The notes beneath the pieces are model-generated. The model saw only the letters and a program-made list of their open reading frames with translations. It did not search any database and had not been told where the DNA came from. Shown here in pieces: positions 2,742 to 5,584 of a DNA stretch of 16,507 bases. Source of the stretch: Azolla caroliniana (lineage: Eukaryota > Plantae > Polypodiophyta); assembly GCA_043228905.1 (NCBI GenBank), contig JBHGNT010000743.1, positions 1-16,507 on the forward strand, read 5' to 3'. The translations under genes and the position numbers were made by a program. The stretch's first letter is position 1; every line of letters starts with the position of its first letter.

Positions 2742-2743
2742 GT

Positions 2744-2754
2744 TTGAATCCCTT
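2744..2754 (+). promoter_or_regulatory. Candidate self-priming primer-binding site
   Basis: TTGAATCCCTT, 2 nt after the LTR, lacks the TGG of a tRNA PBS and is the exact reverse complement of AAGGGATTCAA at 5424-5434. Confidence 0.75.
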
Positions 2755-2962
2755 CCAACTGGGAGGACCACCCGTCTTTGTCATTGCCTTTGCTTCTAGA
2801 GTTATCATCATCACCGTCCTTGCTTCCGGAGTTACCGTCATCAACGTCCTTGTCTTCCACGTCATCATTTTTAGCACCTCTTCACCCAACCATTGTCGTT
2901 ATCAACACTACTTGTCATCATTTTTAGGTATCATTTTGCATCACGGTTTTGGTGGGGAGTGC

Positions 2963-3300
2963 TTTCGATCGCTCACCTTCCCAGTTCCGGTGGGGGTCAC
3001 AACCGCTCACTTTCCTGGCGGGGATAAGATCATTGCTCGCTTGCACTACGTTTTTGTTATAGTTCAAGTCTCGCGCCACTTTCTGTTGGCGAGGACCGAT
3101 TTCGATCGCTCACCTTCTAGTTTCGGTGGGGGTCACAACCACTCACTTTCCTGGTGGGGATCGGATCATTGCTTGCTTGCACTACATTTTCGTTATAGTT
3201 CAAGTCTCGCGCCACTTTCTGTTTGCGAGGACCGATTTCGATTGCTCACCTTCTAGTTTCGGTGGGGGTCACAACTGCTCACTTTCCTGGTGAGGATCAT
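2963..3300 (+). repeat. Tandem repeat, ~136-bp unit, ~2.5 copies
   Basis: TTTCGAT(C/T)GCTCACCTTC recurs at 2963, 3100 and 3236. Confidence 0.9.
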
Positions 3301-3414
3301 GTGGGTTTCTCGCTAGTGCTACTGTTTATGTCGTATCTTGGTTCAACCTCGACTATTTACCCTCTCATAATAGAAGAAGTTGAGTCGACCGCTTCACTTG
3401 CACTCCTTCGCCCG

Positions 3415-4100
3415 TTGTTGTTCCAGTTCTCGGTGAGGGCTGCATGGTCTCTCACGTTCGTTTGTGTTCCAGTTCTTAGTGAGGGCCACATGGTCACTCA
3501 CACCTGTCCGTGTTCCAGTTCTCGATGAGGGCTGCATGGTCACTCACACTCGTTCATGTTTTCGATGAGGACCGCACATGGTCGCTCACGTTCCAGTTCC
3601 CGATGACGGCCACATGGTCGTTCACGTCCGTTCGTCTTCCAGTTCTTGGTGAGGGCGGCATGGTCGATCATGTCCGTTCGTGTTCCAGTTCTCGGTGAGG
3701 GCCGCACGGTCACTCATGCCCGTTGGTGTTCATGTTCCAACTCTTGGTGAGGAACAACATGGTCTCTTATGCCCGTTGGTGTTCATGTTCCCTGTCAAGA
3801 CTGCACGTGGTCACTCACTCCAGCTATTGTTCGTGTTCCAGTCTCCGGTGAGAAATGCGCATTGTCACCTACTCCAACTATTGTTCGTGTTCAAGATCCC
3901 GGCGAGGACCGACATGGTTGTTCATGCCTGTTGTTATTCATGTTCCAATTCCTGGTGAGGAATACACATGGTCGCTCATGCCCGTTGGTGGTTGTGTTCC
4001 AACTCTCGGCGAGGACTGCACATGATCACTCATGCCCGTTGGTGGTCATGTTCCAACTCTCGGTGAGGACCGCACATGATCGCTCATGCCCGTTGGTGTT
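3415..4100 (+). repeat. Minisatellite, ~35-47-bp units (copy A)
   Basis: Recurrent GTTCCAGTTCTCGGTGAGGGCCGCATGGTC(A/G)CTCA variants. Confidence 0.9.
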
Positions 4101-4235
4101 CAATGCCTCATCTTCTAGAAGGGTTACTCCTTGTCTAGGATTTACAAAATACTTTTGAGGTGGTCTAAGATTTTCATCAACACTATCCCCTAAGCCAACG
4201 ATCGGTTTGGGGAGGCGGCGTAAAAAGGGGGATAA

Positions 4236-4359
4236 TGTCACATTCTAGACTCGAACCTCGGACTTTTAACACACAGTACATTGTTTTGTGTTAACCATAT
4301 GGAAACTCTTGTGAACTATCCACATTCTAAATGGGTATATTCTAAATGGGTATATTCTC
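4236..4359 (+). repeat. Internal truncated LTR copy preceded by a PPT (4222-4235)
   Basis: Matches the first ~125 bp of the 3' LTR at 5221, then jumps back into internal sequence equivalent to ~3377. Confidence 0.9.
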
Positions 4360-4396
4360 AAGTCGAGTCGACCACTTCACTTGCACTCCTTCGCCT

Positions 4397-5085
4397 GTTG
4401 TTGTTCCAGTTCTCGGTGAGGGCCGCATGGTCGCTCACGCCCGTCCGTGTTTAGTTCTTGGTGAGGGCCGCATGGTCACTCACGTCCGTTCGTGTTCCAG
4501 TTCTTGGTGAGGGCCGCATGGTCACTCACACCTTTTCGTGTTTTCAATGAGGACCGCACATGGTCGCTCACGTTCCAATTCCCGATGAGGGCCACACATG
4601 GTCGTTCATGTCCATTCGTGTTCCAGTTCTTGGTGAGGGCCGCATGGTCGATCATGTCTGTTCGTGTTCCAGTTCTCGGTGAGGGGCCGCACGTCACTCA
4701 CGCCCGTTGGTGTTTGTGTTCGAACTCTCGGCGAGGACCAACATGGTCTCTTATGCCCGTTGGTGTTCATGCTCCCTGTCAGGACTGCACGTGGTCACTC
4801 ACTCCAGCTATTGTTTGTGTTCCAGTCTCCGGTAAGAAATGCGCATTGTCACCTACTCCAACTATTGTTCGTGTTCTAGATCCCGGCGAGGACCGGCATG
4901 GTTGCTCATGCCTGCTGTTATTCATGTTCCAGTTCCTGGTGAGAACTACACATGGTCACTCACGCCCGTTAGTATTCATGTTCCAGTCTTGGGCGGGAAC
5001 CGCACATGATCGCTCATGCTTGTTGGTATTCGTGTTCCAGTCCTGGACGAGGACCGCACATGATCGCTCGTGCCCGTTGGTGTTC
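4397..5085 (+). repeat. Minisatellite (copy B, part of the 985-bp duplication)
   Basis: Same motif and largely the same succession of unit variants as 3415-4100. Confidence 0.9.
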
Positions 5086-5122
5086 AATACCTCATCTTCT
5101 AGAAGGGTTACTCCTTGTCTAG

Positions 5123-5209
5123 GATTTACAAAATACTTTTGAGGTGGTCGAAGATTTTCATCAACACTATCCCCTTAAGCCAATGACCGGTTTGGGGAGG
5201 TGGTGTTAA
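5123..5209 (+). pseudogene. Chromodomain C-terminal tail remnant of a chromovirus integrase
   Basis: DLQNTFEVVEDFHQHYPLKPMTGLGRWC* lies directly before the PPT and resembles the NL.NA.E.V..FH..YP.KP end of chromovirus pol. A disrupted duplicate lies at 4139-4223. Confidence 0.65.
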
Positions 5210-5220
5210 AAGGGGGATAA

Positions 5221-5584
5221 TGTCACATTCTAGATTCGAACCTCTGACTTTTAACACATAGTACATTGTGTTGTGTTAACCATATAGAAACTCTTGTGAA
5301 CTGTCCACATTCTAAACGGGTATTTTCTAAATGGGTATATTCTTGAGATATTTCTTGAGAATATTCTAGAGATATTCAATCTCGGAAATTGTATAAATAC
5401 GTGCAACATCCTTGGTCCCTTTCAAGGGATTCAACACCAGTCATTGACACATCAATATAGTATTCTCGTTTCGCCCCATCTTGTCTCCTTCAAGTTCTTG
5501 TGTCGTTACCTGCTTCTTAAGTTCCACGCTCATTGCCCCATCATTTGTGTTTCTTCTTAGTCCATGCTTGGTGTGTCCATGACA
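5221..5584 (+). repeat. 3' LTR of the nested gypsy element
   Basis: Follows the PPT at 5208-5220, runs TGTCA...TGACA, has TATAAATA at 5392-5399 and is followed by the TSD. Confidence 0.92.

What the first reader, a model, noticed from the sequence alone, without database searches (positions are those of the whole stretch)
2742..5434. Tf1-like self-priming signal in a non-autonomous plant chromovirus element
Seen: the PBS position (2744-2754, TTGAATCCCTT) has no tRNA-type TGG start and is the exact 11-nt complement of AAGGGATTCAA at 5424-5434, which begins 32 nt after the start of the LTR TATA box, where a transcription start is expected. Known: S. pombe Tf1 primes reverse transcription by folding the first 11 nt of its mRNA onto the PBS, and self-priming has been proposed for related chromoviruses. 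Inference: this is a tRNA-independent, non-coding, minisatellite-filled derivative of a Tcn1/Tf1-like chromovirus mobilised in trans. The primer motif is missing from this copy's 5' LTR, so this copy is probably dead.
Basis: partly seen in the sequence, partly recalled or inferred. Interest (0 to 1): 0.8.

Follow-up and report, generated by a model that had tools for sequence, protein, structure and literature searches.

The report
Self-priming, gene-less plant chromovirus derivative
A 3.3-kb plant jumping gene with no genes left has a copying start site that pairs with its own terminal repeat instead of a tRNA end, so its family likely primes itself as yeast Tf1 does, a trick already predicted for this lineage; this copy is damaged.

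Summary
Observation confirmed: 2744-2754 is the exact complement of 5424-5434 (11 of 20,000 shuffles), 32 nt after the TATA box. The pairing is larger than reported: the next 20 nt pair with the LTR end (14 of 15; 4 of 5,000 shuffles), as in the Tf1 'pretzel'. The element (2256-5584, 5-bp TSD) keeps only a broken integrase chromodomain, which ties it to gypsy chromoviruses whose RT groups with fungal/vertebrate Tf1/sushi-type elements, not to self-priming TAR copia. The family is abundant in four organism labels; the primer varies at most 2% per site against up to 41% just upstream. Gaps: start site unmapped, PBS conservation unmeasured, covariation only hinted, third stem not significant, autonomous partner's DNA not found. 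This copy's 5' LTR lost the primer, so it cannot self-prime in cis. Self-priming is already predicted for 83% of 1,500 plant Tcn1 elements (PMC6317226), and this scan noted gene-less self-priming elements in other genomes. Verdict: a well-supported new member of a known kind; interest 0.3.

The parts
2251..2255 (+). left target-site duplication CTAAC
   Evidence: matches 5585-5589
2256..2741 (+). 5' LTR (TG...TA), TATA box at 2496-2503
   Evidence: 84% to the LTR of L001 over 445 columns
2527..2556 (+). 30-nt patch that replaces the equivalent of 5423-5451 (predicted -1 to +28: primer and most of the R arm); 2525-2549 is identical to 2568-2592
   Evidence: private lesion or assembly error not distinguished
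2704..2718 (+). U5 arm of a possible third stem (pairs with 2758-2771)
   Evidence: same register in the 3' LTR, but not significant (185 and 484 of 3,000 shuffles)
2726..2740 (+). U5 end, partner of the R arm (predicted R-U5 stem)
   Evidence: 14 of 15 pairs with 5440-5454 (10 Watson-Crick, 4 G-U)
2744..2754 (+). primer-binding site, after a GT spacer; no TGG
2963..3299 (+). 136-nt tandem repeat, 2.5 copies
3419..4102 (+). 46-nt and 54-nt minisatellite, first block
   Evidence: also in L001
4101..4245 (+). broken chromodomain remnant, PPT (4222-4232) and start of the internal LTR fragment, first copy
4236..4359 (+). internal LTR fragment (U3 start only, no TATA box); end of the duplicated unit 3377-4358 = 4360-5343, 90% identical
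4402..5086 (+). 46-nt and 54-nt minisatellite, second block
5082..5230 (+). broken integrase chromodomain remnant in two frames, with stops and an internal deletion shared with L001; runs through the PPT into the LTR
   Evidence: tblastn E 1e-8 with P0033 for 5123-5230; only pol remnant among 178 queries
5208..5217 (+). polypurine tract
5221..5584 (+). 3' LTR (TG...CA), TATA box 5392-5399
5416..5421 (+). U3 hexamer complementary to the first six primer bases (U3/R hairpin)
   Evidence: pairing probability about 0.6-0.7 in the fold of 5395-5470
5424..5434 (+). predicted self-primer (+1 to +11); C at -1, A at +1
   Evidence: intact in L001 at the same TATA offset; conserved
5440..5454 (+). R arm (+17 to +31) pairing with the U5 end (5569-5583: 13 Watson-Crick, 1 G-U, 1 mismatch)
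   Evidence: 4 of 5,000 shuffles
5585..5589 (+). right target-site duplication CTAAC

Best explanation
This is a damaged copy of an abundant, gene-less deletion derivative of a gypsy chromovirus, likely of the Tcn1 (Tf1/sushi) clade, whose RNA is predicted to start at the LTR 11-mer and would prime its own reverse transcription using proteins of a coding relative. Shown: LTRs, TSD, PPT, loss of gag-pol except a broken chromodomain, the 11-bp primer:PBS complement, the adjoining R-U5 complement, and conservation of the primer in the family. Inferred from Tf1: transcription starts at the 5424-equivalent A; +1 to +11 anneal to the PBS while +17 to +31 clamp the U5 end; the helper's RNase H cuts after +11; the freed 3' end primes minus-strand DNA; the PPT primes the plus strand. 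Because the signals are all in the RNA, a gene-less element keeps them and is packaged in trans. This copy's 5' LTR lost -1 to +28 and ends in TA, so its own transcript cannot form the structure.
For: Exact complement, 11 of 20,000 shuffles, ending precisely at TATA+32 with C|A at -1/+1. Of all 31-nt windows of the 3' LTR the best duplex with U5 end plus PBS starts at 5424-5425 (-30.9 kcal/mol; best elsewhere -16.2). R-U5 stem 4 of 5,000 shuffles, matching the 'pretzel' described in PMC10085805. Remnant hits Pfam Chromo proteins; full PR-RT-RH-INT-chromo relatives P0063/P0064 end in the same PPT-encoded tail and group with fungal and vertebrate elements apart from angiosperm, Chara and Closterium rows, 100/100. 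L001 has the same minisatellite, chromodomain deletion and intact primer. In four runs, 10 of 14 sites between TATA and primer vary (up to 41%), 4 of 9 scorable primer sites vary (at most 2.0%), and C/G transitions are 3-10 times rarer in the primer. A PBS variant with C at 2753 (4 contigs) is matched by the only A>G variant listed, at primer position 2 (15-21 contigs per run). Plant Tcn1: 83% of 1,500 predicted self-priming, 5-bp TSD.
Against: The start site is unmapped. The primer was read from the 3' LTR, and the two LTRs differ by several large indels and 21% at the U5 end, so they may come from different subfamilies. PBS conservation across copies was not measured (1,026 rows were hidden). 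The second change in the PBS variant (2745) had no matching primer variant listed, though that site lies just outside the scorable range; the two variants are not physically linked, and A>G would be tolerated as G-U anyway. The third stem is not significant (185-1,329 of 3,000). The tree has no named Tcn1 or Tf1 row, has long branches, and places relatives, not this element. No host tRNA set was compared. No intact young copy and no helper DNA was seen.
Confidence: 0.8

Rival explanations
1. The signal is a passive relic of a self-priming coding ancestor; the gene-less form spread little by retrotransposition, and the conservation seen belongs to coding families that share the LTR core.
For: Depth at the TATA-primer core is about tenfold that of the rest of the element, and other U3 types join the same core, so pools families. 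This copy is old or chimeric.
Against: The minisatellite-to-chromodomain joint and the chromodomain deletion recur in L001; the whole interior is covered by thousands of contigs in four runs; this copy has its own TSD.
Confidence: 0.1
2. Priming uses a host RNA (half-tRNA or other small RNA); the LTR:PBS pairing is only a folding or packaging stem, with the real start site upstream where the U3/R hairpin forms.
For: A hairpin 5416-5429 shows the primer has another partner. Half-tRNA priming exists in plants. PMC2864245 found no self-priming sign in one clubmoss Tcn1 element.
Against: Half-tRNA priming was found only in copia lineages. The complement stops exactly at TATA+32. Primer:PBS pairing wins over the hairpin in two-strand folds.
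Confidence: 0.06
3. The element derives from self-priming TAR (Houba/Osr1-type) copia rather than a chromovirus.
For: TAR is 89% predicted self-priming with 5-bp TSD; the element sits inside a copia.
Against: The sequence before the PPT is a gypsy integrase chromodomain; the flanking copia is on the other strand with a tRNA-type PBS.
Confidence: 0.02
4. Chance complementarity.
Against: 11 of 20,000 and, for a separate stem, 4 of 5,000 shuffles, both at the positions Tf1 predicts.
Confidence: 0.02

Closest known systems
Tcn1 clade of plant chromoviruses (moss and clubmoss; PpatensLTR, SM-Tcn1; Neumann 2019 PMC6317226, Novikova 2010 PMC2864245)
   Same: Chromodomain with a W-K-G-Y type chromo box before the PPT, 5-bp TSD, no tRNA PBS, complement of 10 nt or more starting 0-5 nt after the LTR.
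   Different: Gene-less, 3.3 kb against 5.5-9.4 kb, interior filled with 136-, 46- and 54-nt repeats; no named Tcn1 sequence was compared directly.
Tf1/Tf2 of Schizosaccharomyces pombe and the Tf1/sushi group (Tj1, Tosmo, Tcry1)
   Same: 11-nt 5' primer complementary to the PBS, flanked by an R-U5 stem; works-like match.
   Different: Tf1 priming is shown by experiment, here only predicted; third duplex not significant; an extra U3/R hairpin can hide the primer.
Non-autonomous LTR retrotransposons (TRIM, LARD, sugar-beet families of PMC13570524)
   Same: LTRs, PBS and PPT without coding capacity, some with decayed chromodomain remnants.
   Different: The six PBS motifs of the 115 beet families were tRNA-derived; this one is not. 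Longer than a TRIM (under 1 kb).
TAR copia (Houba, Osr-1)
   Same: Predicted self-priming in plants.
   Different: Copia lineage; no chromodomain.

Membership tests
Tcn1 / Tf1-sushi self-priming chromoviruses | Integrase with C-terminal chromodomain | tested here: met
   Remnant only: tblastn E 1e-8 (window) and 3e-12 (L001) with P0033, a Pfam Chromo protein
Tcn1 / Tf1-sushi self-priming chromoviruses | RT places in the Tcn1 / Tf1-sushi clade | tested here: inconclusive
   Element has no RT. Relatives P0063/P0064 group with fungal and vertebrate rows 100/100 in a 43-row tree (1 of 44 dropped as short), without a named Tcn1 or Tf1 row
Tcn1 / Tf1-sushi self-priming chromoviruses | No full-tRNA PBS (no TGG 0-5 nt after the LTR) | tested here: met
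Tcn1 / Tf1-sushi self-priming chromoviruses | LTR complement of 10 nt or more to the PBS (criterion of PMC6317226) | tested here: met
   11 nt in the 3' LTR and in L001; only 7 nt in this copy's 5' LTR
Tcn1 / Tf1-sushi self-priming chromoviruses | Primer is the very 5' end of the RNA | not testable with these tools
   Only position (TATA+32, C|A) supports it
Tcn1 / Tf1-sushi self-priming chromoviruses | R-U5 duplex beside the primer duplex | tested here: met
   14 of 15 pairs; 4 of 5,000 shuffles
Tcn1 / Tf1-sushi self-priming chromoviruses | Third duplex (U5 with the bases after the PBS) | tested here: inconclusive
   13 pairs in the same register in both LTRs, but 185-1,329 of 3,000 shuffles reach it
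Tcn1 / Tf1-sushi self-priming chromoviruses | RNase H cut after base 11 releases the primer | not testable with these tools
   Known for Tf1 from the review PMC7175516
Tcn1 / Tf1-sushi self-priming chromoviruses | 5-bp TSD, TG...CA LTRs, PPT | tested here: met
   the 5' LTR ends TA
Tcn1 / Tf1-sushi self-priming chromoviruses | Primer and PBS co-vary across copies | tested here: inconclusive
   One of two predicted compensations seen, unlinked
Half-tRNA-primed elements (Osser, Bryco, Bianca) | PBS complementary to a half tRNA-Met or tRNA-Ile | not testable with these tools
   No host genome or tRNA set held
TAR copia | Copia pol ending in RNase H, no chromodomain | tested here: not met
   Chromodomain remnant before the PPT
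Non-autonomous LTR retrotransposon | No intact gag or pol between LTRs | tested here: met
   No Pfam hit in 3 of 3 long interior frames scanned; 178 pol queries hit only the remnant; the long minisatellite frame is not kept in L001
TRIM | Under 1 kb with tRNA PBS | tested here: not met
   3,329 bp; definition from PMC6934838

The most novel reading that the evidence does not exclude
Several LTR families in this plant share one 'self-priming cassette' (TATA, 11-mer, R arm) and swap U3 modules around it; sibling families carry different 11-mers at the same TATA offset, each preceded in U3 by its own complement. That U3/R hairpin would hide the primer copy at the RNA's 3' end, or in transcripts that start too early, making start-site choice a lock on transposition, and the 5' LTR lesion that removes almost exactly the paired +1 to +31 segment would be a footprint of a failed self-priming event.
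Probability: 0.2. Interest if true: 0.55.

Novelty: new member of a known kind. Interest (0 to 1): 0.3.

Why it matters
Self-priming in plants is, in the papers read here, a sequence prediction, not an experiment. An abundant family with a clean primer, PBS and R-U5 stem gives a sharp test: one predicted start base and one predicted cut. It also shows that a gene-less element can spread without a tRNA site, which PBS searches built on tRNA libraries would miss. It does not change the known picture: the mechanism is Tf1's and the lineage was already predicted to use it.

Tried and rejected
No whole genome is held, so copies could not be collected. No RNA holder listed; this says nothing about expression. 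Viral contigs gave 0 matches for two LTR patterns and no relative of P0033. The one genome contigs match, L003, has no similarity to the window and is chance. L002 holds only 99 nt of LTR start. Pfam did not recognise the 36- and 29-residue remnant frames directly (one sub-threshold unrelated hit). Rfam found nothing credible in the element. The protein atlas could not read the minisatellite frame. Absence of variant rows in the R arm was not counted as conservation: all 16 rows lie 30 nt or more from the ends of the laid stretch. Summed contig depth was not taken as copy number. The primary Tf1 papers were not held. A protein origin for the minisatellite was considered and has no support.

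Full report
Observation. Bases 2744-2754 are the exact reverse complement of 5424-5434, each found once in the window, with no extension on either side. The 11-mer begins 32 nt after the first T of the TATA box at 5392; -1 is C and +1 is A, the pyrimidine-purine step usual at plant start sites (recalled). In 20,000 dinucleotide shuffles of the 3' LTR, 11 gave a complement of 11 nt or more to the 24 nt after the 5' LTR. There is no TGG in the first 8 nt after the LTR.

Anatomy. The element spans 2256-5584 (3,329 bp) between CTAAC repeats. The 5' LTR (486 bp) ends in TA, the 3' LTR (364 bp) in CA. The interior holds 136-, 46- and 54-nt tandem repeats and a 985-bp duplication (3377-4358 against 4360-5343, 90%) that repeats the PPT and the LTR start. 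It interrupts the RT/RNase H region of a minus-strand copia. None of the 3 long interior frames scanned has a Pfam hit, and the long minisatellite frame is not kept in L001.

Ancestry. Before each PPT lies a broken chromodomain in two frames with an internal deletion that L001 shares. The open 36-residue half from L001 found 4 proteins among 1.84 billion; 3 of the 4 carry Pfam Chromo. P0033 matches window 5123-5230 at E 1e-8 and ends in the same tail read through PPT and LTR start. Full-length relatives P0063 and P0064 have protease, RT, RNase H, integrase and chromodomain in gypsy order and a similar tail. Of 178 such proteins none hits any other part of the element. In an RT-RNase H tree of 43 rows (1 of 44 dropped as short) they fall with fungal, amphibian and fish elements, apart from angiosperm, Chara and Closterium rows, 100/100, with long-branch warnings and no named Tcn1 or Tf1 row. 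This fits the Tcn1 clade, which in plants is confined to mosses and clubmosses (PMC6317226, passages; PMC3350952, passages), and excludes TAR copia. The host is not identified by any search; a non-seed plant is inferred from this and from the plant-type tRNA-Met PBS of the flanking copia (motif recalled).

Structure. Tf1 needs three duplexes, the 'pretzel' (PMC10085805, passages), and RNase H cuts between bases 11 and 12 (PMC7175516, passages). Here +17 to +31 (5440-5454) pairs with the last 15 nt before the LTR's final base: 14 of 15 in the 3' LTR (1 G-U) and 14 of 15 with this copy's 5' U5 (4 G-U); 4 of 5,000 shuffles reach the energy. Scanning every 31-nt window of the 3' LTR against U5 end plus PBS gives -30.9 kcal/mol at 5424-5425 and -16.2 at best elsewhere. 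A third duplex forms in the same register in both LTRs but is not significant (185 to 1,329 of 3,000). A U3 hexamer (5416-5421) can pair with the primer; extending the RNA 5' over it weakens the net primer:PBS gain from -27.7 to about -21 kcal/mol without abolishing it.

Other copies. L001 has the minisatellite, remnant, PPT and an LTR with the 11-mer intact at the same TATA offset. Thirteen of 16 listed runs hold the stretch; X1 may be the window's source. Laying four runs gave 9,348, 7,397, 8,608 and 2,402 contigs over the whole interior, at summed depths hundreds of times that of the unique 3' junction; this indicates abundance, not a count. X4 (organism B) holds the same 3' junction with 3 differences, so the insertion is probably shared and old. 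On L001 1562-1646, 16 variant rows reached 1%, all within 1592-1614. Ten of 14 sites between TATA and primer vary, up to 41%; 4 of 9 scorable primer sites vary, at most 2.0%. Mean C/G transition shares upstream against primer are 1.35/0.25, 1.18/0.11, 3.03/0.98 and 3.12/1.08%. This pools families that share the core and excludes contigs under 80% alike. A loose end in X2 (4 contigs) shows a PBS with changes at 2745 and 2753; the A>G predicted for primer position 2 appears in all four runs (0.5-2.0%), the other predicted change is not listed but lies one base outside the scorable range. This is a hint, unlinked. PBS conservation itself was not measured.

This copy. The 5' LTR matches the 3' LTR up to 2526, then a 30-nt patch built from nearby U5 sequence replaces -1 to +28. 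Its own transcript leaves the PBS without a 5' partner. The LTRs differ by K about 0.05 in U3, 21% at the U5 end and several indels, and L001 resembles the 5' type in U5, so the copy is old or a recombinant of two subfamilies. It cannot self-prime in cis.

What is known. Neumann 2019 predicted self-priming for 83% of 1,500 Tcn1 and 89% of 203 TAR elements (supplement 5, read whole); its large element table and FASTA could not be read and may hold this family's partners. PMC2864245 (passages) saw no such signal in one clubmoss element. PMC7466625 (parts 1-3 of 6) describes the abundant chromodomain family RLG1 of a model moss; no link to this family was tested. PMC4600332, PMC6934838, PMC13570524 and PMC5341516 were read as passages; the last shows start-site choice controlling Tf2. 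Search listings showed no paper on a gene-less self-priming Tcn1 derivative or an experimental test in plants, but the library lacks most subscription journals and repeat databases. This scan's own notes report gene-less self-priming LTR elements in other genomes and none like this sequence; they are unchecked.

Verdict. Real feature, first reading supported, mechanism likely (0.8) but inferred at the start-site and cleavage steps. New member of a known kind; interest 0.3.

Noticed in passing
window 5404-5433 equivalent; loose ends (X1, behind 5403, 3 contigs; X2 4 contigs, X11 1 contig, before L001 1614): A sibling LTR family has an 11-mer that keeps the first four and last three letters but differs in the four between, at exactly the same TATA offset, and is preceded in U3 by its own 9-nt complement. 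Its PBS was not seen; it is the best covariation test.
   Followed up: partly
L001 1572-1574 (window 5390-5392 equivalent), table 7: At least two other U3 types join the same TATA-primer-R core, where depth is about tenfold higher: modular LTRs, possibly including the coding helper.
   Followed up: no
window 2527-2556: The lesion in the 5' LTR starts at the predicted start site and removes nearly the whole paired +1 to +31 segment; the patch is a copy of nearby U5 sequence.
   Followed up: partly
window 1977-2264, 5644-7014, 7268-7582, PBS 7671-7682 (minus strand): The host copia lacks residues about 105-863 of relative P0042, so it is itself internally deleted. L001 406-655 is related to its PBS/LTR end (69%), so both copies of the family lie beside similar copias.
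   Followed up: partly
window 8810-9062 (minus strand): Two fragments of eukaryotic 28S rRNA embedded among 111-134-nt repeats.
   Followed up: no
window 9381-13569: A 4.2-kb element with about 35-nt terminal inverted repeats inserted into a 111-nt repeat, with 8-nt flanks matching at 6 of 8; inside, a 150-160-nt array of palindromic units at 10540-12530. Probably a non-autonomous DNA transposon.
   Followed up: partly
window 14134-15006 and 15200-15840: A 573-nt spaced duplication (84%) and an LTR-like stretch of another element, not examined.
   Followed up: no
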